Source: the human T2T-CHM13v2.0 reference genome, Homo sapiens. Taken from it: 64,000 nt of DNA. This document shows positions 4,850 to 61,248 of the stretch, piece after piece. Location: the NCBI GenBank assembly GCA_009914755.4, contig CP086569.2:11264001-11328000 (forward strand), given 5' to 3'. Within the stretch, counting starts at the first letter, position 1; every line of letters starts with the position of its first letter. The notes under the pieces are model-generated. The model worked only from the letters and a program-made list of their open reading frames with translations. It searched no databases and was not told the origin of the DNA. The translations under genes were made by a program, and so were the position numbers.

Positions 4850-5995
4850 GGGGATGATGATGATGGTGGTGATGGTGATGATGAAGTTGGTTGTAATGGT
4901 GATGATGGTGGTGGTAGTGGTGGCAGTGATGGTGGTGATAATGGTGATGATGGAGATGTTGGTAATGGTGATGATAGTGATCATGATGGTGATGGTGATG
5001 ATGGTGATGATGGTATTATGATAGTGATGATGGTGTTGGTGATGGTGATGATGATGATGATGGTGGTGATGATGATGGTGATAATGATGGTATGATGACA
5101 GTGATAATGTTGATGATGTTGGTGATGGGGATGGTAGTGGTGATGGTGATGGTGATAATGGTGATGGTGGTGATTATGAGGATGGTGGTGATGATGGTGA
5201 TGGTGACAATAATGGTGATAATGATGGTATTATGATAGTGATGATGGTGGTGATGGTGATGATAATGGTGATAATGACGGTATGATGGTAGTGATAATGG
5301 TGATGGTGATGGTGATGATGATGATGATAATGGTGATAATGATGGTATGATGGTAGTGATAATGGTGATGATGTTGGTGATGGGGATGATAGTAGTGGTG
5401 ATGATGATGGTGATGGTGGTGATGGTGATAACGGTGATGGTGATTATGAGGATGGTGGTGATGAAGGTGATGGTGACAATAACGGTGATAATGATGGAAT
5501 TATGATAGTGATGATGATGGTGATGGTGATGATGATGGTGATGATAATGGTGATAATGATGGCATGATGGTAGTGATAATGGTGATGGTGATGGGGATGG
5601 TATTGGTGATGATAGTGGTGATTATGAGGATGGTGGTGATGATGGTGATGGTGATAATGGTGATAATGATGGTGATTATGAGAATGGTGGTGATGGTGAT
5701 GATGGTATTATGATAGTGATGATGGTGATGGAGGTGATGGTGATGATGGTGGTGATGATGGTGATGATAATGGTGACAGTGATGGTATGATGATAGTGAT
5801 AATGGTGATGATGTTGGTGATGGGGATGGTGGTGGCGATGATGGCGATGATGATGATAATGATGGTGATCATAATGAGGATGATGATGGTGATGATGACA
5901 GTGGTCACTGCAATGATAACAGTAGTGGTGATGATGAAGATGATGATGATGACAGTGATAATGATAACCATGACACAGTGATGATTACTATGTAT
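4850..5995. repeat. Imperfect (TGATGG)n / (GATGGTGATGAT)n minisatellite, about 1.1 kb
   Basis: Continuous GATGGT/GATGAT hexamer and 12-mer periodicity. The ORFs 4755..5021, 5708..5971 and 5787..5981 (poly-M/V/I) are artefacts of this repeat. Confidence 0.9.
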
Positions 5996-14939: not shown

Positions 14940-15290
14940 GGATAGATGGGTGAATGAGTGGATGGAGGGAGGGAGGGAGAGAAGGGTGAGGTGTGTAGGA
15001 AGATGAGTGGATACATGGATGGGTGGCTGGGTAGGTGGGTGGCTGGGTGGATGCATGGATGGATGGATGGATGGATGGATGGATGGATGGATAGATGGCT
15101 TCCTGGCTGGGTAGATGGGTGGCGGATGGATGGATGGATGGATGGATGGATGGATGGATGGCAGACAGGCAGGTAGGCTGGATGGATGGATAGATGGACA
15201 GATGAGTGAGTGGAGGGGGGATGTGGATGGGGAGATGTGGATGGGTTGGCGGGTCAGGGGATGGGTGGGTAGGTGGGTGGAAGCATAGAG
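14940..15290. repeat. (GGAT)n microsatellite embedded in GGGTGG/GGCTGG-rich low-complexity sequence
   Basis: ggatggatggatggatggatggatgg runs. ORF 14958..15176 (..[11 protein letters not shown]..) is an artefact. Confidence 0.85.
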
Positions 15291-20290: not shown

Positions 20291-20814
20291 GAAGAAAAAG
20301 AAAAATCTGGGAGTCCATTTGGAAGCAGCAGACAGACGAGAGGACATCCCCTTCAGCAGGTGCATGCCACAGGGTGAGGCAGCACAGCAGGAATGAGAGG
20401 GCAGGGACCTCCCAGCATGGCAAATGTAGCAGGGATTTTGAGTGACTGTATGGGAGGAGAGAGAGGGAGGACAGGTGAGTGACGATGCATGGTCTTTGAG
20501 GGGGGCCAGGATGGCAGTGCAAATGCTTTTTCCTGAATGAAGTACCCCACTGGAAGATGCTTGTGCTTTATAAATGAAAGCGCTGACTCAAGCACAGAAT
20601 GGGATGCTCATTTTCCCTAAGCATCTGCTGGGAGGTGGGCCAGGTCACAAGGATCAGCCCTCAGAGTGGCAGCTTCAGCTGAGCTACTTGGTGCCAGGCC
20701 TCAGGGAGAGGCAGACGCGGGGCTGACGTACACGCCCCAGGAGGGCCCGAGAAAGGCCGCCACAGTCCCGTTCTGTTTTCTTCTCTGCTCTCCTTGCAAT
20801 ATGGCATTCACTGT

Positions 20815-20990
20815 GGATTAAAGGGTGGGGGGAGGGGGAAGGGATAGCATTGGGAGATATACCTAAAAGTAAATGAGGTAATGGGTACAGCACACCAACA
20901 TGGGACATGTATACATATGTAACAAACCTGCACATTGTGCACATATACCTTAAAACTTAAAGTATAATAATAATAAAATTTAAAAAAGAA
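20815..20990 (+). mobile_element. L1 extreme 3' end (3' UTR tail), sense
   Basis: gggtggggggagggggaagggatagcattgggagatatacctaa..gggtacagcacaccaacatgggacatgtatacatatgtaacaaacctgcacattgtgcacatataccttaaaacttaaagtataata. Confidence 0.8.
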
Positions 20991-23049
20991 AAAAAGGAAA
21001 AAAAGAAAAAGAAAAACCACTTTGGGCCATGGGGCCAGTTTTCTTCCCTCTTCCTCATTCACACTCCCCCAGAAATAACAGAGCTCACTATAGTTTGTAT
21101 TGATTTTGGCACATACCACTTGTTTTAAAGGCCACACTGAATGCCCAGCGCCAGCACTCCACCACTGTGCATTTGAGAGGTTGGAGAGATGTTGCCCCCC
21201 TGTGCCAAGAGCCCACCCCACCACTCCCTGCGTGGCCCAGGAAGCCCACACACACAAGACTATTCAAGTGAGGGCTCTGGTTGTGCCTGAAGGGTTGTGA
21301 GCACTGCTAGAGGCTCTCACTCAATGATTTAAAGCTTCAGTCCCACTGGAGGGTGAGGCTCAGAAACAGCATTCACTCAGCCAGCAGCAGTGGGCCCAGA
21401 CAGCAGGGGAGGAGGGGTGGCATTGGGGGAGAAGAGGGGCTGCCCATGTTCTTCTCCAGCACCAACTCCCAATTGACAGGCACTGGGCCTCAGTGCAGAC
21501 TCACTCAGCAGCTTCTGGCTGGCTCCTCCAGGCAGGGTTCCAGGAACTGTCTCTTGTCCCTGGCTACACAGAGGACTCAGCCCCACAAAGGATTTCTCAC
21601 ATGGGAACAATGTCTGCTTTGTTGCTGAGAGCTCACACCCAGGGAATTTCTGGTTTCAGCTTCCAGGGGCTTTGTTTGTCTTGAACAGAGTGAAGCAAAG
21701 TGGTCTTCAGAAGGTTTCAGAAACAATCAGGGTCCCACGAGTAGAGACTAAACCCTGAAGAGGCCCTGGGCTTCATGAGGAGGTGCTGTAGGTTAAATCT
21801 GGGCTGGAGCAGAGCTGTGGCTCCATCCATCACTCCAACAGGTCTCCAGTGCCTCTAGCAAAGTGGGCAGAACATCTGCTGGGGAAACAGTCCCTGCCCT
21901 GCAAGGGGAAGATTTCCCTGCCATGGAAAGCATCAAACAGGCAGGGAGGCAGGGTCCAGCCAGGTGTAGGAGGCCCCTGATCTCCCGACACCCTTGCCCC
22001 AGTGCTGATGGAGCACCTCACTGGCTGAGATGACCGGGGCCTCACTTCTACGTGGCTGATGAGAGCCACATGATGTGGAGTCCCATGGACTCCACAGCAG
22101 TGACAATGAATGAACCCAAGCTACATGCGGATCATCCCCAAAACAACACTGTACAAAAGGAAGGCAATTCGTGGAAGGATTCAAACCACATACTATCATT
22201 TCCAGATAAAGGCTGGAAAGATGCCACACAGTCCTACAGATGGTACATGGGCATTTTCACCATGCGTAATGGCACAGAAGCAGTCAACTGGAAAGGCACA
22301 TGCCCAACGCAGGAGAGCAGTTCCCTCTCGGAGGAAGACAGGGTGGACCACACTGGCCACGTTGCTTGGAGCCATAAACTTCCTGAAAGCAGTTCCAGCA
22401 ACTATGGGACACGGTCAAACTTGATACAGTTGAGGACACAGATGTTTGCCATATTATTCTCTTTGTTAGAAATCATTCACAAGGAGCAAGGAAGGAGGGC
22501 AGGAGTGCAGGGGGCAGAAGAGGCCACCCCAAAATAGGCCACCTGGGCATAAAGACAGTCCTGAGCTGAAGGCGATGGAGGAAAAGCAGGTGTGAGAACA
22601 GCTCACTGCCTTCCCCCACCGCCAGTGTGCCTCAAAGCAAGACGTAAATTCAGAAGGAGTACCCACCCCCACCACACCAGGAAGGACAGAAGTTCATCAC
22701 TGGAGACAGCTTTAGACTGTTGTCAGCCCCACCCTGGAGGAACCTACAGAGCTGACTTCACCAACAGACTAGCCTTCAGCTGCTGTTACTTTCCTAAAGA
22801 TTGGCCACCCCACAATTTGCCCTCCAGGAACTCACAGGCCTTTCCCTTTGTCTTGTCACTTCTCTGCAAATGTACTGTTCCTGCACTGAGGCGCCATCCC
22901 AGCACAAGCTGTAGCCACTTTTTCAGACACTCTTTACTGACCAGTGCTCTATGTGTTCACAAACTGTTTTTCTCTTGCGACTGTGTCTTATGTCAGCTCA
23001 ATTTCAGGGCCCCAGGTAGAGAGGAGGGTAGTAGAAAAAGAAATTTCTC

Positions 23050-25590
23050 CTCTGCAGGGGGAGGTATTAGAAGAAAGAAAGGAGGGGAGGGAGGTGAATA
23101 GATGAATGGATGGATGGATAGATGGCTGACTGTGTGGGTAGGTGAGAGGGAGGAAGGAAGGGAGGAGGGGAGGGAAGGAGGTAGATGGATGGATGGATGA
23201 ATGGATGGATGGCTAACTGTGTGGGTAGGTGAGAGGGAGGAAGAAGGGAGGGAAGGCGAAAAGTAGGGAGGCAGGGAAGGAGAAAGGGAGGGAGGGAAGG
23301 AGCAAGGGGGGGAGGGAAAGAAGGAAAGAAGGAAGGAAAAAAGGGAGGGAGGTAAGAAGGGAGGGAAGGAGGGAGAGGAGGGGAGAGAGGGAAAGGGAGA
23401 GGGAGAGGAAGGGAGAGGATGGGAGGGAGGGAGAGGAAGGGAGAGGAAGGGAGGGAGAGGAAGGGAGAGAGAGGAAAGGAGGGAAGGAGAGGAAAGGAGG
23501 GAGGGAAAGGAAGGAAGGGAGGGAGAGGAAGTGAGGGAGAGGGAGGGGGAGTGAGAGAGGGAGAGGGAGGGAGGGGAAGGGAGGGAGGGAGAGGAAGGGA
23601 GGGAGTGGGAGAAGGGAAGAAGGGAGAGGAAGGGAGGGAGGGAGAGGAAGGAAGGGAGGGAGAGGAAGAGAGGGAGAGGGAGAGAAAGGGAGGGAGGGAG
23701 AGGGAGAGGAAGGGAGGGAGGGAGAGGGAGAGGAAGGGAAGGAGGGAGAGGGAGAGGGAGAGGAAGGCAGGGAGGGAGAGGGAGAGGAAGGGAAGGAGGG
23801 GGAGGCAGAGGGAGAGGAAGGGAGGGAGAGGGAGAGGAAGGGAAGGAGGGTGAGGGAGGGAGAGGAAGGGAGGGAGAGGGAGAGGAAGGGAAGGAGGGTG
23901 AGGGAGGGAGAGGAAGGGAGGGAGAGGGAGAGGAAGGGAAGGAGGGTAAGGGAGGGAGAGGAAGGAAGGGAGGGAGAGGGAGGGAGAGGAAGGAAGGGAG
24001 GGAGAGGGAGGCAGAGGGAGAGGGAGGAACAGAGGGAGAGGGAGGAAGGGAGGGAAGGAGAGGGAAGGAGGGAGGAGGGAGAGGAAGGGAGGGAGAGGGA
24101 GGGAGAGAAAGAGAGGAAAGGAGAGAGAGGAAGGGAGGGGCAGAGAGGAAGGGAGGGGAGAGAGAAGAGGGAGAGAGAAGGTGGGGAGAGAGAAGCGGGG
24201 AAGAGAGGAAGGGAGGGGGAGAGAGGAAGGTGGGAGAGAGGAAGGGAGGGAGGGAGAGGGAGAGGAAGGGAGGGAGAGAGAGAGGGAGATGAAGAGAGAG
24301 AGGGAGGGAGGGAGGGAGAGAGAGGGAGAGGAAGGGAGGGAGGGAGGGAGAAAGGGAGGGAGATGAAGGGAGGGATAGGAAGAAAGGGACGGAGGTAGAG
24401 GAAGAAAGGGAGGGAGGGAGAGGGCGAGGAACGGAGGGAGTGAGAGGGTGAGGAACAGAGGGAAGGAGAGGGTGAGGAAGGGAGGGACGGAGAGGGTGAG
24501 GGAGGGAGAGAGAGGGTGAGGAAGGGAGGGATAGGGTGAGAAAGGGAGGGAGAGGGCAAGGAAGGGAGGGAGGGAGAAGGGGGATTGCAGGGAGAGGAAG
24601 GGAGGGAGGGAGAAGGAGGAAGAGAGGGAGAGAGAGGAAGGGAGGGAAGGAGAGGGAGAGAAAGAGAGTGGGAGGAAGGGAGGGAGAAGGAGAGGAAGGG
24701 AGAGGGAGGAAGGGAGGGAAGGAGAGGAAGGGAGGGAGATGGAGGGAAGGAGAGGAAGGGAGGGAGATGGAGGGAGAGGGAGGGAGAAGAAGGGAGAAGA
24801 AGGGAGAGGAAGGGAGGGAGGGAAGGAGGGAGAAAGAGGGAGGGACAGGGAGGGAGAGGGAGGGAGGAAGAGAGGGAGAGGGTGAGGAAGGGAGGGAGAG
24901 GGCAAGGAAGGGAGCGAGGGAGAGGGTGAGGAAGGAAGGGAGGGAAGGAGGGAGAGAAAGTAAGGGAGGGAGGGAGGGAGAGGAAGGAGGAGAGGGAGAG
25001 AAAGGAGGAGAGGGAGAGGACAGGAGGGAGCGGAAGGGAGGGAGCGAGAGGAAGGATGAGAGGAAGAGGACAGGAGGGAGCAAGAGGAAGGGAGGGAGAG
25101 GAAAGGAGGGAGAGGAAGGGAGAGAGAGGAAGGGAGAGGAAGGAAGGGAAGGAGAGGAGGGGAGGGAGGGAGAGGGAGAGGAAGGGAGGGAGGGAGAGGG
25201 AGAGAAGGGGAGGGAGAGGAAGGGAAGGAGGGAGAGGAATGGAAGGAGGGAGAGGAAGGGAGGGAGGGAGAGGAAGGAAGGGAGGGAGAGGGAGGAAAGG
25301 AGGGAGAGGGAGGAACAGAGGGAGAGGGAGGAAGGGAGGGAAGGAGAGGGAGGGAGGGAGAGGAAGGGAGGGAGGGAGAAAGATGGAGGGAGGGAGAGGG
25401 AGAGGAAGGGAGAGGGAGAGGAAGGGAGGGAGGGAGAAGAAGGAAGAGGGAGGGAGGGAGGAGGAAGAAGGAGGGAGAGAGGGAGAAGAAGGAAGAGGGA
25501 GGGACAGGGAGGGAGAGGGAGTTAGAGGAAGGGAGGGAGAGGGAGAGACAGAGGGGGAGGGAGGGAGAGGAAGAAAATGATAAGAAGGAA
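23050..25590. repeat. About 2.5-kb polypurine/polypyrimidine low-complexity tract (GGGAGG/GGAAGG/GAGAGG)n, with a (GGAT)n-like edge at 23095-23215
   Basis: The plus strand is almost exclusively A and G for about 2.5 kb. This produces the giant artefactual ORFs 22993..25083, 23067..24905 and 23213..25633 on the minus strand (poly S/P/L) and the G/R/E-rich ORFs on the plus strand. Confidence 0.95.
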
Positions 25591-27257
25591 AGCTGAGAAG
25601 ACTTCCTAATGCAGGACCTAAGTCTGCTCCCAATTATTCACATTAGAGGAATGTCAGGGTAGCAATGACATTGATAATCCCAAATCAATAGTATAGTCTT
25701 CTATTAAGTCTCTGGCTATAAACCAAAATATATTTACTGTGTACCAATTATACATGAGGGATCCCCCTAGGGTGCATGTGGCTTCATGTCCAGCGCACGT
25801 TCTTTCTTTGTAAGGAAGGCGCCATGCCATTGTCCACAGTTTTTGGAGCACCCTGTGTCCAACCACCTAACACAATCCCTGCCTAGGTCTCCTGGGGACT
25901 TTCGGCTACATGGAGTGGGTAAGGGCAGGAACTTCTCACCCTGTGTTTAGACACTTCACAAGGCAAAGACGACGGCACGAGCCAAGAAAAGGGGGCACCT
26001 GTTTCTTACTCTTGAGTCCCTAAAATGAGAGTGGGCTTTATAAGAATCCTGAAATTAGGAGTTTTCACAGAACATCTGGGTTTCAGTCATCTCTAGAAAA
26101 ATCACAGGCTACTGCCTCCTGAGCCCACTCTACCCACCTTGCAGCCATGTGGGTACCGAGCCGTGTGGCCCTCTGGACGGGGCAAGGGCAACATGATTCA
26201 CCCAGCCCCACCTCACTATGCCCTCTGCATGCTGGGAGCCACTGCCCCTCACCATCCAGGTACACTGAGGCTCACCCTGCACTCAACGCACCCACCCCAT
26301 CAGCCCTGGGCCCGGGCAGCAGAATAGTGGACCCTGTGCTAGTGTTTTATAACTGGGGGGCCCTGTGAGTGTTCAGGAACCTCCCAGGGAGGCCACGGGC
26401 AGTTCACCAGGAACCAACACTCTATGTCCAATTAGGAGAAAGCTGATACCCGCTGTTGAGTCCCAGCACTCTTCCAGCATGGGAAGAGCCTGCCGGGTAG
26501 CAGGGTGCACTGGAACCACATCCTCAGCAGGCACTCAGGCCTCGCCCCTCAGCTTTGCTGCCCAGAAACCTGACAGCAGCCACTCCTCATCAGATATCAA
26601 CCTCCACCTGTGGCTGTGATGCCACCCTATTCCACCCGTTTTTGTTCTTCATCCTCATTCTCCTGGGCCCTGCTGGGTTGGAAAGCAGCACAGGCATGAG
26701 GTTGAAGGGAAGGAGCCCTTCTTAAGTGGAGCAAAATCTACTCAGAGCTCACATCACTCATTGATGCAGAAAGAAGCCTAGTGTTGTAGCGAGGCCAGCC
26801 TCAGCGTCAACATCTGAAATACGGGAGGTGGGAGGAGCCTGCAGCTCAGAGCCCTGGCACAGAGCAGAAAAGGCCCACACTGATTCTGCCCCTGCTCAGG
26901 TCAGATAATGTCTGACTGGCAAGAGCAGGCGAGAGACCATCCAGGCTCCAAGCTGTTTCCAGGGGTGTGTGTGTAGGAAGCCCCCGTCAGTGGACAGTGG
27001 ACACCCAGTGAACACATGCTGGGTGGCCGGCCAGGGCTCCTGATCACAGACACCCACAAGAGCAGTCAGGGGGACATGAAGGGGTTGAGGCTGGCAGAAT
27101 GTGGTCCCTCAATCAGCCAGGCAGCAGCATTCCCACTCTGGCCACAGCTGGTAGGTAGGAACACAGGTCTGGTGTTGCCAGGCCTGCAGATATCTTTTAG
27201 ATATGTCAGATTTGACCAAAAAAAACATGAAATTTAGAAACATTGGAAATTCACTTT

Positions 27258-27550
27258 GTTTTTTATTGAGACAGAGTCTCACTCTGTCACCCAGGCCAGA
27301 GTGCAGGTTTTCAATCTCGGCTCACTGAAACCTCAGCCTCCCATGTTCAAGTCATTCTCCTGCCTCAGCCTCCCAATTAGCTGGGATTACAGGTCCCTGC
27401 CACCATGCCTGGAGAATTTTTTGTACTTTTAGTAGAGACGGGTTTTCACCATGTTGGCCAGGCTGGTCTCAAACTCGTGACCTCAAGTGATCCACCTGCC
27501 TCCACCTCCCAAAGTGCTAGAATTACAGGCATGAGCCACCACGCCTGGCC
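27258..27550 (-). mobile_element. Alu (minus strand)
   Basis: gagacagagtctcactctgtcacccaggccagagtgcagg..cctcccaaagtgctagaattacaggcatgagccaccacgcctggcc. Confidence 0.9.
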
Positions 27551-29172: not shown

Positions 29173-29814
29173 TTAAGATACTTTTTCACCATAAGAAGGT
29201 TTTTATTGATATGGAATCTCTGAGAGACACCCTGTGTGTGAAACACATGGAAACCGAGATTTTGTGACTAAACATTTCATTTATTTTGCGCATTCCTGTG
29301 TAAAATGCGCCCGTCCTCAAGGCAGTGAGGACCCCGAGGCTACCCTGGTGCCATTTACAGACATTTAAACTCGGGGTCAAATGGTTGCAGGACTGACAGC
29401 ACTCCATGGGAACCCGTGGAACTGGAACAGAATATTCAAGGAATCCAGGTTCCATCGGATGTTAGAAAATTGCCGTTCTAGGAGCTGACATAAACATAGG
29501 GCTGAGGGCAATTGCGAGGGGGTGGGCTTCAGGGAAGGGTGGGCCGCCAGCCAGTCCAGAGTTGGCAGGTGTGAGGGAAGAGGAGGCCAGCCAGGTGTGA
29601 GGGAAGGGGAGGCCAGCCAGGCAGAGGAGAGAAAGGCATGCCGGCTTCCTTCTGTTCATTTAATCCACTGTTCTCCTCCCCGCACCTGCAAAACACATCA
29701 GCTGAGAAGGAGCTAGAACACAACATATGGGGGCCCTGGCCAAGGGAGTGGACTGCTCTGGAAGTTGCTGCAAAAGCAGACCTTCTGACACACTGCCACA
29801 AATACTGGAGGGCT

Positions 29815-30590
29815 GAACTTACCCCTGCCCACACTACCGGAGGGGAGGACCTACCCCTGGCCCACACTCCCAGAGGAGGGATGGACCTACCCTGCCCACA
29901 CTCCCAGAGGAATGGACCTACCCCCGCCCACGCTCCCAGAGGGATGGACCTACCCCAGCCCAGTCTCCTGGAGAGATGGACCTGTTCCGCCCACACTCCC
30001 AGAGGGGTGGACCTACCCCAGCCCACGCTCCCACAGGGGTGGACCTATCCTGCCCACGCTCCCAGAGGGGTGGACTTGCCACAGCCCATGCTCCCACAGG
30101 GGTGGACCTATCCTGCCCATGCTCCCAGAGGGGTGGGCCTACGCCCATCCAGGCTCCCAGAGGGATGGACATGCCACACCCATGCTCCCAGAGGGGCGGA
30201 TCTACTCCACCTAGGCTCCCAGAGGGGTGGATCTACCCCAGCCCACGCTCGTGGAGGAGTGGACCTATCCCCACCCATGCTCCCGGAGGAGGGGTGGACC
30301 TACACCAGCCCACACTCCCAGGGGAGGGGTGGACCTACCCCAGCCCACACTCCTGGAAGTATGAACCTACCCCAGCCCACACTCCCGGAGGAAGGGTGGA
30401 GCTACCCCAGCCCACACTCCCAGAGGGATGAACCTACTCCAGCCCATGCTCCCAGAGGAGGGGTGGACCTACCCCAGCCCATGCTCCCGGAGGAGGGGTG
30501 GACCTACCCCAGCCCACGCTCCCAGAGGGATGAACCTACCCTGTCCATGCTCCCAGAGTAGGGATGGACCTGCCCCTCCCATGCCCCCCG
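29815..30590. repeat. Minisatellite of about 21 units, 36-37 bp (consensus about CCCACGCTCCCAGAGGGGTGGACCTACCCCAG[C])
   Basis: Regular repeat ..cccacgctcccacaggggtggacctatcctgcccacgctcccagaggggtggacttgccacagcccatgctcc.. The stop-free multi-frame ORFs 29638..30561 (307 aa), 29912..30214, 29976..30431 and 30428..30721 are repeat artefacts. Confidence 0.9.
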
Positions 30591-44679: not shown

Positions 44680-47210
44680 AGTTATGTCCACCCAGGGCCT
44701 GCTTGGACACCTGCACCTGATGTTCACCAGGGGCCTAGGAATCCACTTGGGGCCTCGGAACCTACAGGGGCCTAATGTTACCCTGCAGATTGGGTAGCCA
44801 CCGGGGGACCAGGCATCAACCTGGGTACTGTGGTTGACCTGTGGGCTAATGTCCAGCTGGGGATTGGTTATTCACCTGAGGACTGATGCGTACCTGGGGC
44901 TGAATGTCCCCCTCAGGGTGAATTCCACCTCAGGCCTGTATGTCCACCTGGGGCCTGATGTCTGCCTTAGTTCTGTGTCCCACTGGGGCCTTGTGTTCAC
45001 CGGGGACTGGTATCCAGCTGTGGCCTGATGATCTACTGCATCCTGTTGCTCACCTACGGCCTGGTGTCTACCTGGGGCTTGGTGATCACCTGGGAGCTGG
45101 ATATCAACCTGGGGCCTGGGTGTCCACTTAAGGCCTGATGTGGGCCTGGGGCCTGATTGTCCACCTGGGGACTGGGTGTCCACCTTGGGTCTGATGTCTA
45201 CTTGAAGTTAGGTGTCTACCTAAGTCTTGGTGTCTACCTGTGCCCTGATGTCCACATGAGTCTGGGGTTCGGTTGGGGCCTGCTGTACATCTGGGAACTT
45301 GGTGTCTATCTGAGGCCTGATGTCTACCTGGTGACTGCCATCCTCTTGAGGCCTGCTATCCACCTGGGAATGGTTTATCCATGGAAACGGTTATGTCCGC
45401 CTGGGGCTGGATGTTGCCCAGCGGCTAGATGTCCACCTGTGGCCCCGTGTCCACCTAGGGCCTGATGTCCACCTGGGGCATGGTGTTCACCTGAGACCTG
45501 GGTGTTTACATAGGGCCTGATGTCCAGCTGGTGCCTAGGTGCCCACCGGGGGCTTTGTGTTAACCTGGGGACTGGTATCCAGCTACGTCCTAATGACCAC
45601 CTGGGTTGAATTATTCACCTAGAGTTTGGTATTCACTTAGGGCTTGAGTGTCAGCCTTAGACCTGGTGTCCACCTGGGCCTTGTGTATCAAACTAGGGGT
45701 TTGGTATCCAGTTGAGACATCATTTGCACCTGGGGTCTGAGTGTTCGCATGAGGCCAGATGACCACTGGGGACCTGAATGTCAACCTGGGTTCTGAAATT
45801 CACTGGAAGCCTAGGTATCCAGCTGGGGCCTGATGTCCACCTGGGACTAGGTGTCAACATGTGGCCTGATGTAAACCTCTAGTTCAGTGCCCATCTTGGG
45901 CCTGATGTCCACTGGGGGACTGATGTTCACCTTTGATCTGAAATCTACCTGGAAACCGTGTATTCACCCATGGCCTGATGGTCACCTGGGGTTGAATGTC
46001 CAACTGTGGCCAGATGTGCACCCGGATCCTGGGCATCCACCTGGGGCCTGATGTTCATCTGGGGCCTGGAGTTCAACTGAGGCACGATGTCCACCTGAAG
46101 CCTAATGTTCATCTGAGTGCTGAGTCTAATGTACTCCTGGGTTCTAGTGTCCTCTTGGGACCTGATGTCTACCAGGATCCTGGTATCCACTTGGGGCCTG
46201 GTATCCACCTAGGACTTGATATTCACCTGGGGCCTGGGAATCCACTTGATAACTGGTGCCCATCAGGGTCTTATGTTCACCTTGGGACTGGGTAACCACC
46301 TGAGGCCTGATGTCCACTTAGGGCATAAGTGTTTAGCTGGGGTCTAGTGTTCACATGGGGTCTGATGTCAACCTTGAGCCCAGGTATTCACCAGGAGACT
46401 AGTGTCCAGCTGGGACCAGATGTTCACTTGGGGCCTGGTGTCAACTTGAAGCATGGTTGTCAACCTAGGACCTGATGTCCAGTCCAGTGTCCACCTTGGG
46501 CCTGTTTACTACCTGGGGCCTGTGTGTCCACATAGACCCCGATGTCAATCTGGGGCCTGGGTATTTACCGGAGGCCTGGATATTCATTGGTACATTATGT
46601 CTACTGGAGTCTTTGTGTCAATCTGAGCTCTGATGTCCACTTAGAGATTGGGTATCCACCTAAGGCCTGTTGTTTACATGGGGCCTGTAACACGAGGTTC
46701 CAGATAAACTCAGATGTCCACCTGAGGCCTGATGTCCACCTGAGTTCTGAGTGTTAACATAGGGCCTGCTGTCAACCTGGGACCTAAGTATTTACCTAGG
46801 GCCTGGGTGTCCACCTGGGGCCTGACTTCCAAATAGATCTTGTGTCAACAGGTGGCCTGATGTGCACTTTGGGCCTAGGTAACTTCTTGATGACTAATGC
46901 CCACATGGCTCCTAAGGACCTTCTGAGGCCTGGTATTAATTTAGAGACTGGTATACACCTGGTGTCCAGGTATCCACTTGGGACCTGATGTTCACCTGGA
47001 GTGTATGAATTCACGTGGGGCCTGGTGTCCACCTTGAGTGTGTGTATCCAATTGAGTGTGATGTCCACCTGGAGTCCAGTGTATACCCGGGGCCTGATGT
47101 ACACATGGGGCCTGGGCATCCATCTAGGACCTGATATTCAGATAAGGGCTGGCGTTCTCCTGGCCTGGTGTCCACATGGAGCCTGGATATACACTTGGAG
47201 CCTGATGTCC
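44680..47210 (+). repeat. Left arm of the 18-bp array, unit in GGGGCCTGATGTCCACCT orientation
   Basis: Units read ..ctggggcctgatgtccacctgg.. up to ..gagcctgatgtcc at 47210. Confidence 0.9.
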
Positions 47211-50200
47211 CAGGTGGATACCTGGGCCCCAGTGGTCATCAGATCCTAGGAAACTCTCAGGCCCCAGGTGCACATAAAGCTACAGTGGCCACCTAGGCCA
47301 CAGGTTGATACACAGGGTCCAGGTGGACACTGGGTGCAAGATGAACACCAGGCCCCTGGTGAACACAAAGCCCCAGGTGTCTACCTAGTCCTCAAGTGGA
47401 CACCAGGCACTAGATTGACACACAGGTGCCAGGTGGATATCAGGCCGCAGGTGAACACCAGGCCCCAGGTGGTTGGGTTACTTATAGCATAGGTGGCCAT
47501 CAGGTCCCAGGTCTATATCCACTCCCCACCTGAAAATCAGGATCCAGGTGGATACCCATGTTCTAGGTGAACACCAGTTTCCAAATGGATATCAGGCTCC
47601 AAGTGAACACACAGGCCCCAGTTCAATACCAGCCTCAGGTAGACATCAGGACCCAGGTGGACCCCAGGCCCAATGTGCATGCCTAGTCTCTTGGAATACA
47701 TCATTTTCAAGGTGGACACCCAGATTCCTTGTAGACATCTGGTGCCAGGTGGATATCTGCCTGCAGGAGGACATCAGGCCCCAGGTGGACCCCAGGCCCA
47801 ACGTGCATGCCTAGTCTCTTGGAATACATCATTTTCAAGGTGGACACCCAGATTCCTTGTAGACATCTGGTGCCAGGTGGATATCTGGCTGCAGGAAGAC
47901 TTCAGGCCCCAGGTGGAGACTCAGTACACAAGTGTAAATCGGGCTCCAGTATTTCATCAGGCCCCAGTTAAACACTTGACTAAAGGTGTGCATCAAGACC
48001 CAGGTTGACACCCAGGCTTCAGTGCACACTAGGCCCAAAGTGTACACCTGTGCCAAGGTGGGCATCAGGCCCAAGGTGTACACCAGACTCCAAGTGGACA
48101 TCAGGTTGCAGGTTGACACCAGTCTCTAAGTAGATCCTTAAGCCCCAATTGGTCATCAGGCCCAAGGTGGATAGCTTGACCCCAGGAGGTCTCCAGGTCC
48201 CAGGCAGGCCTCAGGTGGACACTAAGCCCTAGATTAACACAAGGTCTGAGATGGTTTCAGCCCCTGTGTGGACTTTAGTCATAAGGAGCTTACTTAGGCC
48301 CTAAGTGGACATCAGGCCCCAGGTTGACACAATGAACCATGTAGAAGTCAGGCTCTAAGTAGACACCCAGGCCCTAGGTAAATACTTTGGTCCCAAGCCA
48401 ATATCAGGCCCTATGTGGGCACCCAGACTCCAGGCAGATGTCAGGCCCCAGGTGAACACTGAACTCAGGGTGGTCATCAGGCCCTAGGTTGACACATAGG
48501 CCACAGGTAGACAACAGGCGTAGGTGAACTTCAGGCTAAATATGAACGTCGGGCTCCAGGAAGAAGTCTGTGCCCCAGTTAAACACCGGGTCTTAGGTAG
48601 ACATCAGACCTCAAATGGATGCCCAGGCCCCAGGTGGATATAAGGCCTCAGGCAAACACCAGATCCCAGGTAGACATTAGACACAAGATGGACACTCAGG
48701 CCACAAGTGAACATCTGTTCCCAGATGGACATCCATCCCAAGGTGGACATCAGGCCAGAGATGTACACCCAGGCCCCAGGAGAACCCCAGGCCCCAGGAG
48801 GACACTCAAGCGCCAGAAGGACACCCAGTCCCTAGGTAACTAAAAGGCCCCAAGTGGACATGATGTTCCAGATGGATATGAGGCCCTAAGTGGATACTAG
48901 GCCCAGGTGGACCCCAGGTCTCAGGGGCACACCAGGACCCAGGGGAACACCAGGCCCTGGGTAAGCCTGCAGTCCCAGGTGGACATCAGGTGCCAGGAGG
49001 ACACCAGGACCTAGTTGGTCATCAAGCCACAGCTGAACACCAGTTCCCCATGAACACCAGTCCTCAGGTGGGCACCTAGTCCTCCCGTGTGCATCAGGTG
49101 CCAGGCTGACATAGGCACCAGCTGAACTCTGGGCCTCAGGTGAACATCAGATCCCAGGTTGTCACCCAGGCCCCAGGTGAACACCAGGTTTCAGGTGGAC
49201 ACGAGGTCCTAGGTGGATGTCTATGCTCCTAGTGAACCTCAGGCCCTAGTGGACACTCAGGCCCTTTATAGACATCTGGCTCCTTGTGCACTCCCAGCGC
49301 CCAGGTGGACATGAGACCCCAGAGGAAAACCAGTCCTTAGTCATCTAAGACTGAATTCCCCTAGGGCTGGAGACTGAGTATTCACCTTGGGCCTAGGAAT
49401 CTACCTGGGGCCAGATGTTGATCTGGGGCCTGATGTCTACTCAGGTTCAGCTGTCCACTTAGGGTGGGGTGTTTTTCTGGGACCCAGAGTCTACCTGAAA
49501 TCTTGGTATCAACCTGGGGCCCATGTGTCCACTTGGAGTCTGATGTGCACTTGAAACCTGAATTTTCACCTAGGATCTGATGAGCACTTGGGGCGCAAGT
49601 TTCCATCTGAAAATCAGGCTCTAGTTATACGTCTGGGCCCCAGGTATACCCTGGACACCGAAAGAACTCCAGCCCCTATCTTAACATGATGTCCTAGGTG
49701 GATGCCCAGGTGTCATGTCTACATTAGGACTCAGGTAGACACAACTCCAGGCGGGCATCAGGCCTGATATTGGCTCTATGTCTCCACCCAAATCTCATGT
49801 TGAATCGTAATCCCCATGGGTTGAAGAAGGGGTGTGGTGAGAGGTGATTGAATCATGGGGGCAGTCTTCCCACTTGCTGTTCTCGTGATAGACTTCTTAT
49901 GAGATCTGGTTATTTGAAAGTGTGTAGCACATCCCCCTTCTCTCTCCCTCCTCCTCCCCCATGGTAAAAAGGGCTTGCTTGCTCTTGGCTTTATATCATG
50001 ATTGTAAGTGTCCCGGGCCCACCCAGTCATGCTCCCTATTAAGCCTGAAGAACTGTGGGTCAGTTAAACCTCTTTTCATCATAAGTTGCCCAATATCAGG
50101 TAGTTTTTTATAACAGTGTGAAAATGGACTAATACAAGACCTTAGGATAACAACCATGCTTCAGGCCATAGGTGGACATCTGGCTGCAACTGGACACTAT

Positions 50201-53200
50201 TCCCCAGGTGGATACCTAGGCTCAAGGTTGACATTAGTCCCCAGCTGAATACCTATGCCCTAAGTAGACATCAGGCCTCAGGCTGACACTCAGTCTAAGC
50301 TCAACATTAGGCTCAGGTGGACACCCAGACTCCAGGTGGATACTAGACCCCAGGGGTACACCAGACTCCTGGTAAGCATAAGTCCCCAGGAGGACACTAG
50401 AATCCAGTTGTACATAAAGCCACTGGTTGACTCCAAGCCCTCAGATGAACACCAGGCCAACTAGTGGACATTAGGCACATGAGAATACTTGGGCACCAGG
50501 CAGGTATCAGGCCCCGGGTAAACATCAAACTTCAGGTGGACATCGTTCTCCATGTAAACTCTAGCCCCAGCTAAACATCAGGCTCCAGGTGGAAGCCCAG
50601 ACCCCAGGTGCACTTCTGGCCACAGTTGGACATCTGTCCCCAGGTGAATATCAGACCATAGATGGATAGCAAGTCCCCAAGTGGACATCAGGTCAAAAGA
50701 GAATATAAGTCTCTAGGAAGACATCTGGCCCCAGGTGGATACTGAACTAGAGGCTTACATCAGACCCCAGATTGACATTCAATCCCCAGGTGGTCATGAC
50801 ACCTCAATTGGACACCAAGTCCTCAGGTTGATAACCAAGTCCCAGGTGGACACCACGTCAAATATGAACACAAGACCTAAGGTTGTCATTCAAGCCCCAA
50901 GTGGACACCAGGCCCTAGGTGAATAATATGACCCAGGGGATCATTGGGACCCAGCTGCATACCAGTCCCCAGGTTTACACGAGGCCCCCAGTAGGTTCCT
51001 AAGCTCTAGTTGGACATGAAGTCTCCAGTAGACACCCAGGACTAAGGTGGACATCAAGCATCAGATGGACGTCTGGCTGCGGATGAACATCAAGCCTCAC
51101 ATGGATACCTAGTCCGCAGGTAGGCATCAGGCCCCAGTTTGACATCAGTTTCTGGGTGGATCCTTAAGCCCCAGGTGGATATCCAGTCTCCAGCTGAACA
51201 TCAGCCCCTCATGGACGCCCAGTCCCCAGGTGAATATCATCAGGTCTCAGGTGAACACAAGTCCCCAGGCAGACATCAGACACCAGGTGTACACTCAGAC
51301 CCCAAGAGGACATCTGTCCCCAGGTTGACATCACTCTCAAGGTGTACATTAGGCCACAGATGTACACCCAGGTCCAAGGCAGACATGAGTCCCCAGTAAA
51401 ACTCAAGGCCCCAGGAGGATACTCAAGCCCTAGGTGGATGCCCACACCCCAGGTAATTACAAGGCCCCAGGTGGATACCAGATTCCAGATGAACATTAGG
51501 CCCCAAGTGGATACCTAGGCACCAGGTAGACACCAGGCTCCAGGTACATCCCCTGGTCTCAGGTGCACACTAGGTCCCCAGTGAACACTGGCTCCAGGTA
51601 AGCACCCAGTCCAAGGTAGACACCATGACCCAGGTGGTCATTAGGCCACAGCTGAACACCAATCTTGAGTGAACACCATATCCCAGGTGGTACCTAGTCT
51701 CCAGGTGGATATTGGGCCCCACGTGGACACCCAGCCCCCAGGTGAACATCAACCTTCAGGTGGACATCATGCCTCAGGTGAACTCCGGGTCCCAGCCCAG
51801 CTGAACATCAGGCTGCAGGTGGATGCCTAGGTTCCAGGTGCACAACAGGTCACAGCTGGACATTCAGCCCCAGGTGAACAACAGACCATGGGTGGATAAA
51901 CAGTCCACAGGTGGACATCAGGTCAAAGGTGAACATCAGTACTCAGGTGGACATCAGGCTCCAGGTTGACATTAAGCCCAAGGTGGACACTGAACTAGAG
52001 GTTTACACCAGGCCCCAGGTTGACACCCAGGCTCAGGTGGACATTGGGCCCCAGGTGGTTACCTAGGCCCCTAGTAAACCTCAGATTCTAGGTTGTCATT
52101 CAGGCCCCCAGTAGTCATTTGGCCCCATGTGGACACTCAGGCGCCAGGTTCACATGATGTCTTAACTGGACACCAAGGGGCCAGTTTGATACCCAAGTCC
52201 TGTGTGGGTGCCAGGTCCAGGGTTACACTCAAGCCCCAAGTGGACACCAGGCCCTAGGTGAATAACACAACCCATGTGGTCATTAGGCCCCAGAATGACA
52301 CCAGTCCCCAGGTTAACAGGAAGCCCCCAGTGGGCACCTATGCCCCAGCTGGACATCAGGCCTAAAGTGGACACCCAGGATCAAGATGGACATCAGGACT
52401 CAGGTGGACATCTGGTGACAGGTGGACATCAAGCCTGATGTGTACCTTGTCCCCGGGTGGTCATCAGGCCCCAGTTCAACACCAGTCCCTGGGTGGATTC
52501 CTCGGCTCCAAGTGGACATCCGGTCTTCAGCTGAACATCAGACCCCAGGTGAACACCAGGACTTAGGTGGACATTAGGCCCCTGGTGGACATAAAGTACC
52601 AGTGGACATCCATGCTGCAGGTGGACAACAAGGGCCCAGATGGGCATCAGGCCCCATTTGGACATTGAGTCCCCAGGTGGATATCAGGCCTCAGGGTGAA
52701 CCCAAGGTCCAACATAGACATCAGGCCTTAGGTTGACACTCAAGCACCAGATGGACTGCTGCACCTAAGCAGAAAATAAACCCCTATCTGGATATCTAAG
52801 ATACATGTATACAACAAGCTCCAGACTGACATCCAGACCCCAGGTGGACACCATACCCCAGGTGAACAGCAGGCAACAGTTTGGCACCAAGTACCTAAGT
52901 GAAACAAAGCCTTAGGTGATTACCAGGCCATAGGTAGTCATTAGTCTCCAGCTGGACAATAGTCCCTAGGTGGATACCTAGGCCCCAGGTGGACACTAGA
53001 CCCCAAATTAACACAAAAACCAAGTAAAAAATCAAGCCCCAAGTGGACAACCAGTCCCTAGGAAAATACACAAATCTCAAGCTGACACCAGGCCCTATTT
53101 GGACACCCAAGCCCTAGGTGGACTTCAGGCCACAGGTGAACACTGAACTCTAGAAGGTCTTCAGGCCCTGTGTTGACTACCTGGCCCCAGGGGGACACCA

Positions 53201-53900
53201 GGCATAGATGAACTTCAGCCACCAGCTGTACATCAGGTTCCAGGCAAATGTCCAGGCCCCAGGTGGATATCAAACCTCAGATGAACACCAGGCCCCAGGT
53301 AGACATCACAAACTAAGTGGACACTCAGGCCCCTATTGAATATCCATCCCCAGGTGGACATCCATCCCAAGGTGGACATGAGGCCACAGATGTACACTTA
53401 AGCCTAAGGCAGACCCCAGGCCCCAGGAAAACTCCAGGCTCCATGAGAGCACTCAGACCTCAGGTGGATGCATTGGTCCTAGGTAAATACAAGGCCCCAG
53501 ATAGACATCAGGCCCCAGTGAACACCAGAGCCCAGGTGGGTACCTAGTCCCCAGGTGTGCAACAAGCAGAAGGTTGACCCAGTCCTCAGCTGAACTCTGG
53601 GACCCAGCTGAACATCATAACCCAGATGGTCACTCAGGCTCCAGGTGAACACACGGTCTTAGGTAGACATCAGGTCCCACATGAACACCCAAGCCCCAGG
53701 TAGATATCAGGCCTTAGGTGTACACCAGACCTCAGGTGGGCATCTGGCTCCAGATGGCCGTAGGTGGATAACTAAACCTCTCATGGATATCAGGCCCCAG
53801 GTAGACACCAGGCTCCAGGCGAACATCTAGCCCCAGGGGGACATCCAGCCCCTGGTGAACATCAGGGCTCACATGGATAAACAGTTTACAGATGGACACC
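47211..53900 (-). repeat. Right arm of the 18-bp array, unit in reverse-complement orientation (AGGTGGACATCAGGCCCC). It contains a short re-inverted patch at about 49360-49605 and an LTR insertion at 49766-50150.
   Basis: From caggtggatacctgggccccagtggtcatcag (47211) onward, units read ..caggtggacatcaggccccaggtgaacaccaggcc... At 49381-49605 the units read ..ctacctggggccagatgttgatctggggcctgatgtctac.. (forward orientation) before reverting. Confidence 0.9.
49766..50150 (+). mobile_element. THE1/MST-type MaLR solo LTR inserted inside the 18-bp array
   Basis: tgatattggctctatgtctccacccaaatctcatgttgaatcgtaatccccatgggttgaagaaggggtgtggtgagaggtgattgaatcatgggggcagtcttcccacttgctgttctcgtgatag..cccagtcatgctccctattaagcctgaagaactgtgggtcagttaaacctcttttcatcataagttgcccaatatcaggtagttttttataacagtgtgaaaatggactaatacaa matches the MaLR THE1/MST LTR consensus (tgtgtccccacccaaatctcatcttgaattgtag..gggaggtaattgaatcatgggggcag..). 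Confidence 0.75.
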
Positions 53901-58977: not shown

Positions 58978-59011
<34 letters not shown>

Positions 59012-60850: not shown

Positions 60851-61248
60851 ACTCGGGGCCGCATAGACGGTGAATAAAATCCTTCCTGTTTGCAGCCCTG
60901 AGTAATCAGGGTCGGCGACCAGTTAGAAGGGTTCAGTGTGGAAAACGGGAAACCAAAAGCCCCTCTGAATCCTGCCCACCGAGGTTCTCCCCAGCCAAGG
61001 CGAGGCAGCCGCAGTGCGAGATCCACACCGCAGCCTCAGAAGACAAATGCAGCATTCCTAATGCAGACATGACACCCAAAATATGACACCCCCATTGCTC
61101 ATGTAACAAGCACCTGTAATGCTAATGCACTGCCTCAATACAAAAATATTAATATAAGATCCGCAATCCCCTTGCTGCCATGCAGTCCTAAGACAGAGAT
61201 CATAATAATCAACATTGACATAGTCAATACAAACGTAGTAACGAACCT
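60851..61248 (+). other. Pre-telomeric (TAR1-like) unique sequence of the kind found immediately proximal to human terminal repeat tracts
   Basis: ..gcagccctgagtaatcagggtcggcgaccagttagaagggttcagtgtggaaaacgggaaaccaaaagcccctctgaatcctgcccaccgag..aaatgcagcattcctaatgcagacatgacacccaaaatatgacac.. resembles the shared subtelomere-terminal sequence family (..tgcagcattcctaatgcacacatgacacccaaaatata..) that lies directly proximal to (TTAGGG)n on many chromosome ends. Confidence 0.5.

What the first reader, a model, noticed from the sequence alone, without database searches (positions are those of the whole stretch)
23050..25590. 2.5-kb near-pure polypurine/polypyrimidine mirror-type tract (candidate H-DNA or triplex former)
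The plus strand is about 95% A and G over 2.5 kb, made of GGGAGG/GGAAGG/GAGAGG motifs, with a (GGAT)n-like edge at 23095-23215. Tracts of this length can adopt intramolecular triplex (H-DNA), stall polymerases, bind GAGA-type factors and are frequently length-polymorphic. They are also hard to sequence and assemble, so the size may differ between individuals. Notably, it also generates the longest ORFs in the whole window (up to 806 aa), which would badly mislead automated gene callers.
Basis: seen in the sequence. Interest (0 to 1): 0.5.

Follow-up and report, generated by a model that had tools for sequence, protein, structure and literature searches.

The report
Long degenerate GA-rich polypurine tract
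This is a real 2.3-2.5 kb stretch of non-coding primate DNA made almost only of G and A on one strand, a familiar kind of low-complexity repeat that can in principle fold into triplex or G-quadruplex structures and that produces fake long reading frames, but nothing found here shows it has a function.

Summary
Window 23050-25590 is 95.9% purine on the + strand. The core, 23231-25577 (2347 bp), is 97.4% purine, and nothing else in the window resembles it. It is a degenerate, minisatellite-like array of GGGA, GA and GGAA tokens in 10-, 14-, 18-, 24- and 48-nt units, including two identical 48-mers. It continues out of a duplicated 87-bp (GGAT)n-containing unit at its left edge.

The host is a primate genome (about 20 Alus). 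The neighbourhood is rich in tandem repeats, ends in a degenerate (TTAGGG)n block, and shows no recognisable coding sequence over the 0-33 kb I scanned.

The 806/696/612-aa ORFs are compositional artefacts. All three frames of the pyrimidine strand are open, and the ORFs have no homologues and no Pfam match.

The H-DNA reading is only partly supported. I found 45 perfect mirror repeats (arms 10-25 nt) in 22 blocks, which is about what the local k-mer content predicts, and there is no tract-wide mirror. G-quadruplex potential is at least as strong: 46 canonical motifs and 285 G3+ runs.

The closest known analogue is the 2.5-kb PKD1 intron 21 tract, but this is not that locus. Length polymorphism and folding in vivo could not be tested. 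This is a known kind of sequence of low to moderate interest.

The parts
23231..25577 (+). Core polypurine (+) / polypyrimidine (-) tract: 2347 bp, 97.4% purine, 60.6% G, 62 pyrimidine interruptions
   Evidence: Maximal-scoring segment and composition; sequence read directly
23085..23251 (+). Left-edge 87-bp unit present 1.9 times. Each unit is GCTRACTGTGTGGGTAGGTGAGAGGGAGG..., a purine run, then (GATG)n. The purine part of the last copy runs straight into the core tract
   Evidence: TRF period 87, 88% matches; the repeat finder family D3; the 28-mer ACTGTGTGGGTAGGTGAGAGGGAGGAAG occurs at 23129 and 23216, with 0 expected by chance
23096..23127 (+). First short (GGAT/GATG)n block of the left edge
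   Evidence: Sequence
23184..23212 (+). Second (GATG)n block, 7.2 copies
   Evidence: TRF
23804..23947 (+). Local 48-bp higher-order unit x3. Copies 2 and 3 are identical and copy 1 differs at 3 positions. The same G>T interruption recurs at 23851 and 23899, and 23947 carries it with one flanking base changed (GGGTAAGG instead of GGGTGAGG)
   Evidence: Alignment A1; interruption list
24711..24765 (+). Longest perfect mirror repeat (25-nt arms, 5-nt spacer); best single H-DNA motif
   Evidence: Mirror scans
23607..23767 (+). Longest uninterrupted purine run (161 nt). The next are 25082-25239 (158 nt) and 25385-25504 (120 nt)
23213..25633 (-). Artefactual 806-aa ORF (Pro/Ser/Leu-rich), the longest in the window. 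ORFs 22993-25083 (696 aa) and 23067-24905 (612 aa) occupy the other two frames of the same strand
   Evidence: the ORF listing; all three - frames are open for 806/842/856 codons stop-to-stop; no homologue, no exact record, no Pfam match

Best explanation
The tract is a genuine, non-coding, degenerate GA-rich low-complexity array (a long purine/pyrimidine tract) in a primate genome. It lies in a tandem-repeat-rich domain that looks subtelomeric.

Origin (inferred). It most likely grew from the purine-rich part of an 87-bp unit by replication slippage and unequal exchange of short G-rich purine motifs, roughly [(GGGA)1-4 GA GGAA] units of 10, 14 or 18 nt, sometimes organised as 24- or 48-nt higher-order units. 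It has since accumulated about 2.6% purine-to-pyrimidine changes while local duplication continued.

Function. I found no evidence of a selected function. Its consequences are physical and inferred from sequence and from the PKD1 intron 21 precedent:
- extreme strand asymmetry;
- many short H-DNA (triplex) motifs;
- an even denser set of G-quadruplex motifs on the purine strand;
- hence a propensity to impede polymerases, form R-loops if the pyrimidine strand is the template, lose long-read coverage and vary in length.

ORFs (shown). Stop codons need both a T and a purine, so they are nearly absent from both strands of such a tract. This opens all three frames of the pyrimidine strand and creates the window's longest ORFs.

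Shown here: composition, boundaries, unit grammar, motif counts, ORF artefact, absence of coding signal. Inferred: growth mechanism, structures in vivo, instability.
For: Composition and uniqueness in the window.

Unit grammar. The G+A+ tokens I tabulated (GGGA x233, GA x193, GGAA x85, GGA x49) make up about 81% of the tokenised tract, and strings such as 44242N, 442N and 42N recur. Autocorrelation peaks fall at lags 4, 24, 14, 18, 28, 10 and 48. TRF reports periods 4, 14 and 18 at 65-70% matches.

Copying of interruptions. The context AGGGTGAGG recurs 8 times, and there are identical 48-mers at 23852-23947.

Continuity with the duplicated 87-bp left-edge unit.

Non-B potential. There are 45 perfect H-DNA-type mirror repeats in 22 blocks, against 14 in the remaining 61.6 kb, most of them overlapping calls in Alu poly-A/T runs. 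There are 46 canonical G4 motifs in the tract against 13 on the + strand and 6 on the - strand in the rest of the window, and mean G4Hunter is 1.50. In the DNA-parameter fold the purine strand reaches -0.9 kcal/mol without G4s and -847 with them, while a length-matched flank reaches -414 and -416.

Not coding. All three - frames are open. The protein search found nothing at E<=1e-10, there is no exact record and no Pfam match. ORFs of 50 aa or more across 0-33 kb also gave no Pfam family.

Host and context: about 20 Alu copies; arrays and (TTAGGG)n.

Precedent: PKD1 IVS21 forms triplexes and G4s and stalls replication (PMC11667243, PMC11696556).
Against: No experimental or population data could be reached, so triplex or G4 formation, instability and length variation remain inferences.

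The locus could not be placed on a chromosome or within a gene. An intronic position, transcription, or a role as a protein-binding array cannot be excluded; for example, the tract holds 102 GGGAGGG heptamers, which I recall as the MAZ-type motif.

The size rests on a single assembly of a sequence class known to suffer HiFi coverage loss (PMC9186530).

One metagenome contig shares a 93-bp unit at 100% identity with unrelated flanks. The simple local-growth story does not explain this.
Confidence: 0.85

Rival explanations
1. The dominant non-B structure is an array of G-quadruplexes on the purine strand, with or without R-loops and with an i-motif-prone C-rich complement, rather than H-DNA. Any stalling or instability would then be G4-driven.
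For: The tract is 60.6% G and holds 285 G3+ runs, most often separated by a single base (102 cases). It contains 46 non-overlapping canonical G4 motifs against 30 +/- 3 in shuffles, and G4Hunter exceeds 1.5 over 53% of it. Folding with G4s allowed gives -847 kcal/mol and about 66 G4 blocks. Perfect mirror arms are short (mostly 10-16 nt) and no more numerous than k-mer content predicts. PKD1 IVS21 is now interpreted largely through G4s (PMC11696556). G4-only AG-rich satellites also cause HiFi coverage drops (bioRxiv 10.64898/2026.07.13.738322).
Against: The two structures are not exclusive. Triplex formation by PKD1 IVS21 H-motifs is documented in vitro (PMC11667243). G4 folding needs strand separation. 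The ViennaRNA G4 term is a coarse model, and triplexes are not modelled at all, so the comparison is one-sided.
Confidence: 0.45
2. The tract, or its 2.5-kb length, is an assembly or sequencing artefact: a mis-expanded or mis-collapsed GA-rich region.
For: GA-rich sequence causes HiFi coverage dropout and graph breaks that had to be patched with noisier ONT data (PMC9186530). AGAGGG and AGAGGGG satellites are among the worst offenders in the human T2T assembly (bioRxiv 10.64898/2026.07.13.738322). No second assembly could be consulted.
Against: The sequence is not a homogeneous repeat. It has 62 interruptions with distinct local contexts, region-specific unit variants and clean unique flanks, which is unlike a stutter or collapse artefact. 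The cited preprint notes that degenerate satellites lower coverage without causing major drops.
Confidence: 0.07
3. The tract encodes a real low-complexity Pro/Ser/Leu-rich protein on the - strand, or a Gly/Glu/Arg-rich one on the + strand.
For: It yields the longest ORFs in the window: 806, 696 and 612 aa on the - strand and 329 aa on the + strand.
Against: All three - strand frames are open simultaneously for 806-856 codons, which is what composition alone predicts. The dominant periodicities are 4, 10 and 14 nt, not 3. No protein in a 5.8-billion-sequence collection scored E<=1e-10, there is no exact gene call on record and no Pfam family. The ORFs start at TTG, in the flank or the left-edge repeat just outside the core tract.
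Confidence: 0.01
4. It is a known named element: the PKD1 intron 21 polypyrimidine tract (or a PKD1 pseudogene copy), or the (CCCTCT)n hexamer domain of an SVA retrotransposon in reverse orientation.
For: The size (2.5 kb), the composition and the number of mirror repeats closely resemble PKD1 IVS21 (PMC11667243). AGAGGG-type hexamers, the reverse complement of CCCTCT, are abundant: GGGAGA 112 and GAGAGG 111.
Against: PKD1: there are no PKD, REJ or other Pfam domains in ORFs of 50 aa or more across 0-33 kb. No ORF outside the tract exceeds 374 codons, whereas I recall PKD1 exon 15 as about 1200 codons. The flanks are 46-55% GC with Alus, not PKD1-like.

SVA: there is no Alu-like sequence between 20305 and 27261 and no adjoining VNTR or SINE-R. 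The period-6 reading is only 61% matched.
Confidence: 0.02
5. The tract is a functional cis-element, for example a dense array of binding sites for G3AG3/GA-box zinc-finger proteins (MAZ, VEZF1 or ZBTB7-type 'GAGA' factors) acting as an insulator, a replication-fork barrier or a recombination modulator in a subtelomere-like domain.
For: The tract holds 102 GGGAGGG heptamers and 25 GAGAGAG, against 15 and 6 in the rest of the + strand. Clusters of purine/pyrimidine tracts are reported in the pseudoautosomal region and near recombination hot spots (PMC4538819 citing Bacolla 2006; PMC1543642; PMC12637528). The window is packed with minisatellites and ends in a (TTAGGG)n block.
Against: Motif density follows directly from the composition. 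The PRDM9 13-mer CCNCCNTNNCCNC is depleted: 1 observed against 26 +/- 5 in shuffles. There are no conservation, chromatin or expression data. The degenerate, still-duplicating structure looks like neutral turnover.
Confidence: 0.08

Closest known systems
PKD1 intron 21 polypurine/polypyrimidine tract (PyRE), human chr16p13.3
   Same: About 2.5 kb; more than 95% purine on one strand; G/C-rich GGGA/GGAG-type motifs. It has 23 perfect plus 4 imperfect mirror repeats, against 45 overlapping motifs in 22 blocks here. Dozens of G4 motifs are reported (38 in IVS21 by QGRS, 46 canonical here). It is intronic, non-coding and primate-specific in extent (PMC11667243, PMC11696556).
   Different: It is a different locus. 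There are no PKD1 exons or PKD/REJ domains nearby, the flanks are Alu-bearing and of moderate GC, and a (TTAGGG)n block and minisatellite arrays lie within 36 kb. No disease link or experimental structure data exist for this tract.
Long purine/pyrimidine tracts catalogued genome-wide (Bacolla et al. 2006; non-B DB triplex motifs; T2T H-DNA census)
   Same: It fits the definitions: at least 90% purine and mirror arms of at least 10 nt with spacers of 8 nt or less. Such tracts are reported to cluster in the pseudoautosomal region and in introns of some genes. The genome average is about 1 H-DNA motif per 25 kb (PMC11879447), against about 19 per kb here by my count.
   Different: As a pure tract it is modest: the longest uninterrupted run is 161 nt and the longest perfect arm 25 nt, against a 797-bp arm for the longest human H-DNA (PMC11879447). 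What is unusual is the 2.3-kb extent of near-purity, not any single motif.
GA-rich simple satellites that cause HiFi dropout, such as (AGAGGG)n, (AGAGGGG)n and (AAAGG)n
   Same: It has the same motif family and the same predicted triplex or G4 behaviour during sequencing (PMC9186530; bioRxiv 10.64898/2026.07.13.738322).
   Different: Those are perfect arrays of 783 bp or less. This tract is longer but degenerate (TRF 61-70% matches), a state the preprint associates with milder coverage effects.
SVA 5' (CCCTCT)n hexamer domain
   Same: The reverse-complement hexamer AGAGGG is a major component.
   Different: There is no Alu-like, VNTR or SINE-R module next to it, and it is not a regular hexamer array.

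Membership tests
H-DNA / triplex-motif purine-pyrimidine tract (non-B DB definition) | One strand at least 90% purine | tested here: met
   97.4% over 2347 bp and 95.9% over 23050-25590
H-DNA / triplex-motif purine-pyrimidine tract (non-B DB definition) | Mirror repeats with arms of at least 10 nt and spacer of 8 nt or less | tested here: met
   45 distinct perfect motifs in 22 blocks covering 947 bp; longest arm 25 nt. The number is not above the Markov-3/5 expectation
H-DNA / triplex-motif purine-pyrimidine tract (non-B DB definition) | Supercoil-dependent S1 or permanganate sensitivity, i.e. an actual triplex | not testable with these tools
   Needs wet-lab work or published PDAL-seq/S1-seq tracks for the locus (PMC12637528)
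G-quadruplex-forming array | At least four G3+ runs with loops of 1-7 nt, and G4Hunter above 1.5 | tested here: met
   46 non-overlapping motifs; 285 G3+ runs; mean G4Hunter 1.50, above 1.5 over 53% of the tract; G4-enabled MFE -847 kcal/mol
G-quadruplex-forming array | Folding demonstrated by CD, NMR, polymerase stop or BG4 ChIP | not testable with these tools
   No experimental data accessible
PKD1 intron 21 PyRE | Lies between PKD1 exons 21 and 22 (or in a PKD1P pseudogene) | tested here: not met
   No Pfam PKD or REJ domains in flanking ORFs across 0-33 kb; no exon-15-sized ORF; flank composition differs
SVA retrotransposon hexamer domain | (CCCTCT)n followed by Alu-like, VNTR, SINE-R and poly-A modules | tested here: not met
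   No Alu similarity within 20305-27261; period-6 TRF reading is only 61% matched
Tandem repeat (micro- or minisatellite) | Head-to-tail copies of a definable unit | tested here: inconclusive
   TRF finds periods 4, 14, 18 and 6 at only 61-70% matches with 12-15% indels. The token grammar and the local 48-bp x3 unit show tandem growth, but no single unit describes the tract
Protein-coding gene | One frame kept open, homologues, domain content | tested here: not met
   Three frames open at once; no homologue; no exact record; no Pfam match

The most novel reading that the evidence does not exclude
The tract may be more than inert low-complexity DNA. It could be a structural or regulatory element of a subtelomere-like, minisatellite-rich domain, for example a fork barrier, an R-loop or G4 hotspot, or a MAZ-type insulator array. 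On this reading its G-rich strand shares the orientation of every other G-rich simple repeat in the window, including the (TTAGGG)n block, and its length variation modulates local replication, recombination or the expression of a host gene, as proposed for PKD1 IVS21.
Probability: 0.07. Interest if true: 0.5.

Novelty: already known. Interest (0 to 1): 0.2.

Why it matters
Kilobase-scale purine/pyrimidine tracts are rare, and the PKD1 example shows they can stall replication and cause breaks and somatic mutation. A second tract of the same size and motif family is a reasonable natural test case for comparing triplex-driven and G4-driven instability, and for long-read coverage bias.

It also matters for annotation. 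The tract generates the window's longest ORFs, which naive gene finders should mask.

Beyond that it is an ordinary member of a well-catalogued sequence class. Genome-wide non-B DNA catalogues for ape telomere-to-telomere (T2T) assemblies will already list it if the window comes from one of those assemblies.

Tried and rejected
1. PKD1 IVS21 identity. Rejected: no PKD1-like exons or domains and different flanks.

2. SVA hexamer origin. Rejected: no adjoining Alu-like module.

3. Real coding sequence. Rejected.

4. Tract-wide mirror symmetry. Rejected. The best perfect arm is 25 nt and the best imperfect arm about 65 nt, only slightly above Markov simulations.

5. PRDM9 hotspot-motif cluster. 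Rejected: 1 match against 26 expected.

6. Rfam and tRNA scans of the whole window found nothing.

7. TAR1 identity of the sequence next to the (TTAGGG)n block. Tested with a sequence recalled from memory; there was no match, so this is uninformative.

8. Allelic or orthologous copies.
- Exact-pattern scans of metagenome, viral and prokaryotic genome collections with flank, left-edge and 48-mer probes gave one hit only.
- That hit, L001, shares just a 93-bp unit and has unrelated flanks.
- No primate genome collection was available, so length polymorphism and chromosomal position could not be addressed.

9. Bacolla et al. 2006 (PMC1464109) is not held in the library. Its claims are cited only through papers that cite it.

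10. Pfam scanning of ORFs in 36-64 kb was not done. That region is mostly tandem arrays.
Full report
**Observation**

Reading 22800-25900 directly shows a sharp switch from ordinary sequence to an almost pure G/A sequence on the + strand, and back again.
- A maximal-scoring-segment scan at a 90% purity threshold puts the core at 23231-25577: 2347 bp, 97.4% purine, 60.6% G, with 62 isolated pyrimidines.
- Purine fraction in 100-bp windows stays at 0.92-1.00 across the core.
- No other 200-bp stretch in the window exceeds 85% purine or pyrimidine. The longest purine run outside the tract is a 40-nt Alu poly-A tail.
- The longest uninterrupted purine runs are 161, 158, 120, 111 and 110 nt.
- Against a 52% purine background, chance is excluded by hundreds of orders of magnitude (my arithmetic from the figures).

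**Anatomy**

The tract is neither a clean microsatellite nor a clean minisatellite. TRF describes it with periods 4, 6, 14 and 18 at only 61-70% matches and 12-15% indels.

Splitting it into G+A+ tokens reveals a simple grammar.
- GGGA (233), GA (193), GGAA (85) and GGA (49) account for about 81% of the tokenised tract.
- They recur in strings such as GGGA-GGGA-GA-GGGA-GA-GGAA, GGGA-GGGA-GA-GGAA and GGGA-GA-GGAA.
- The units are therefore 10, 14, 18 and 20 nt long. This explains the autocorrelation peaks at lags 4, 10, 14, 18, 24, 28 and 48.

Locally these units form higher-order repeats. Positions 23804-23947 hold three 48-bp copies, the last two identical.

The interruptions are not random noise. 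The context AGGGTGAGG recurs 8 times and several others recur 2-3 times, so interruptions were copied along with their units. I infer growth by slippage or unequal exchange of short units, with turnover still going on, on an older degenerate background (about 2.6% purine-to-pyrimidine changes).

The left edge is an 87-bp unit present 1.9 times (23085-23251, 88% matches).
- Each unit has a unique-looking head GCTRACTGTGTGGGTAGGTGAGAGGGAGG, then a purine run, then (GATG)n.
- The purine part of the last copy runs directly into the core. This suggests, by inference, that the tract is the expanded purine segment of that unit.

**Context**

The window is primate DNA. About 20 Alu copies match an AluY consensus at 70-92% identity, and L1 ORF2-like remnants appear in the translations.

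By my sum of the TRF arrays, roughly a third of the window is tandem repeat:
- a 1-kb C-free (GATGGT)n-like tract at 4853-5898;
- (ATGG)n at 15015-15161;
- a 32/63-bp minisatellite at 29808-30581;
- a 9-kb 18/37-bp minisatellite domain at 44.7-53.9 kb, present in two opposite orientations that switch near 47.2 kb;
- a 6.5-kb GC-rich array of 194-219-bp units at 53933-60473;
- about 300 bp of degenerate (TTAGGG)n at 61248-61552.

There were no Rfam families and no tRNAs. ORFs of 50 aa or more, outside Alus and arrays, from 0 to about 33 kb gave no Pfam family.

The tract is therefore intronic or intergenic in a subtelomere-like, minisatellite-rich region.

**ORFs**

The ORF listing confirms 806, 696 and 612 aa on the - strand and 329 aa on the + strand, with 806 aa the longest in the window. 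Stop-to-stop, all three - strand frames are open for 806, 842 and 856 codons.

This follows from composition. TAA, TAG and TGA each need a T and a purine. They cannot occur in a pure pyrimidine strand and are rare in a T-poor purine strand.

Nothing supports coding:
- The 806-aa product has no exact gene call in the 153-billion-position index.
- No protein scored E<=1e-10 among 5.8 billion clusters.
- None of the four ORFs hits Pfam.

For this particular sequence I found no evidence that it has actually happened.

**Non-B potential**

I used the usual H-DNA motif definition: perfect mirror arms of at least 10 nt, spacer of 8 nt or less, at least 90% purine or pyrimidine.
- The tract region has 45 distinct motifs merging into 22 blocks that cover 947 bp.
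- The remaining 61.6 kb has 14, and most of those are overlapping calls in Alu poly-A/T runs.
- The longest perfect arm is 25 nt (24711-24765), but 29 of the 45 arms are only 10-11 nt.
- The best imperfect mirror has arms of about 65 nt with 7 mismatches.

Simulated sequences that keep the tract's 3-mer or 5-mer statistics give as many mirror repeats. Counted per centre and spacer, the observed figure is 77, against 69 +/- 15 and 97 +/- 24 in the simulations. Simulations that keep only base or dinucleotide statistics give 24-29. Mirror symmetry is therefore a by-product of building the tract from self-mirror words such as GGGAGGG and GAGAG. It is not an extra property, and there is no tract-wide mirror.

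The tract is at least as much a G-quadruplex array.
- It has 285 G3+ runs, most often one base apart.
- It has 46 non-overlapping canonical G4 motifs, against 30 +/- 3 in shuffles and 19 on both strands of the rest of the window.
- Mean G4Hunter is 1.50.
- Folding with DNA parameters gives the purine strand -0.9 kcal/mol without G4s (1% of bases paired) and -847 kcal/mol with them. The pyrimidine strand gives -0.2. A length-matched flank gives -414 and gains nothing from G4s.

Once unwound, G4s are the only fold this model offers the purine strand. Triplexes and i-motifs are not modelled, so this does not rank G4 against H-DNA in duplex DNA.

**Comparison with what is known**

The closest analogue is the 2.5-kb tract in PKD1 intron 21.
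- It forms triplexes in vitro and stalls replication (PMC11667243).
- It carries 38 G4 motifs and shows BG4 enrichment and G4-ligand-induced breaks (PMC11696556).

This tract matches it in size, composition and motif counts but is a different locus. There are no PKD or REJ domains and no exon-15-sized ORF nearby, and the flanks differ. An SVA (CCCTCT)n origin is also excluded, because no Alu-like module adjoins it.

Other relevant literature:
- H-DNA motifs occur about once per 25 kb in the human T2T genome, and the longest has a 797-bp arm (PMC11879447).
- H-palindrome clusters are reported in the pseudoautosomal region (PMC4538819, citing Bacolla et al. 2006, which I could not read).
- GA-rich sequence caused HiFi dropout in CHM13 (PMC9186530).
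- AGAGGG and AGAGGGG arrays are among the worst offenders, while degenerate arrays have milder effects (bioRxiv 10.64898/2026.07.13.738322).

**Other tests**
- The PRDM9 13-mer is depleted in the tract: 1 match against 26 +/- 5 in shuffles. A hotspot-motif cluster is not the explanation.
- GGGAGGG, which I recall as the MAZ-type motif, occurs 102 times. That is a lead only.
- Probes for related sequence found one metagenome contig, L001 (OOKJ01011732.1). It shares exactly one left-edge unit (93 bp, 100% identity) but has unrelated flanks on both sides. This could be a paralogous copy or a mis-join, and I could not resolve it.
- The viral and prokaryotic collections gave nothing.

**Verdict**

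The sequence qualifies as a dense cluster of short H-DNA motifs, but mirror symmetry is incidental, G4 potential is equal or greater, and no structural, population or functional evidence could be obtained.

The tract is a real-looking, non-coding, degenerate GA-rich array of a well-known class. It is unusual mainly in its 2.3-kb extent, which is comparable to PKD1 IVS21. I score interest at 0.2 and rate the kind as already known.

Noticed in passing
window 44728-53863: A 9-kb domain of 18/37-bp minisatellite units (consensus GCCCCAGGTGGACACCAG) is present in two opposite orientations. TGTCCACCTGGG-type units lie at 44-47 kb (60 hits) and CCCAGGTGGACA-type units at 47-53.9 kb (133 hits). The switch is near 47.2 kb, where the AT skew also changes sign. 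In effect it is a very large inverted minisatellite array.
   Followed up: partly
window 53933-60473: A 6.5-kb GC-rich (about 61%) tandem array of 194-219-bp units (about 25-30 copies, 65-80% matches). It produces ORFs of 299-370 aa and is not matched by Rfam. Its identity is unknown.
   Followed up: no
window 61248-61552: About 300 bp of degenerate interstitial telomere-like repeats, (TTAGGG)n/(GTTAGGG)n with the G-strand on +. They are followed by AT-rich sequence with L1 remnants. The adjoining 60.4-61.2 kb did not match a TAR1 sequence recalled from memory.
   Followed up: partly
window 4853-5898: A 1-kb C-free (GATGGT/GATGAT)n-like tract (GC skew 0.89). It is another strongly strand-asymmetric low-complexity block with its G-rich strand on +.
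   Followed up: no
window 15015-15161, 23096-23212, 23231-25577, 61248-61552 (with 4853-5898): Every G-rich simple repeat in the window has its G-rich strand on the + strand, the same polarity as the (TTAGGG)n block. These are (GATGGT)n, (ATGG)n, (GGAT)n, the purine tract and (TTAGGG)n. This could reflect a shared mutational or replication-direction bias in a subtelomere-like domain.
   Followed up: no
L001 689-781 (metagenome contig OOKJ01011732.1) vs window 23121-23213: 93 bp at 100% identity, exactly one copy of the 87-bp left-edge unit including its (GATG)n. It is embedded in flanks with no similarity to the window. It is either a paralogous copy of the unit or a chimeric contig.
   Followed up: partly
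window 29808-30581: A 32/63-bp GC-rich minisatellite (about 24 copies, 77% matches). It creates a 307-aa ATG ORF (29638-30561, +), another compositional ORF artefact.
   Followed up: no
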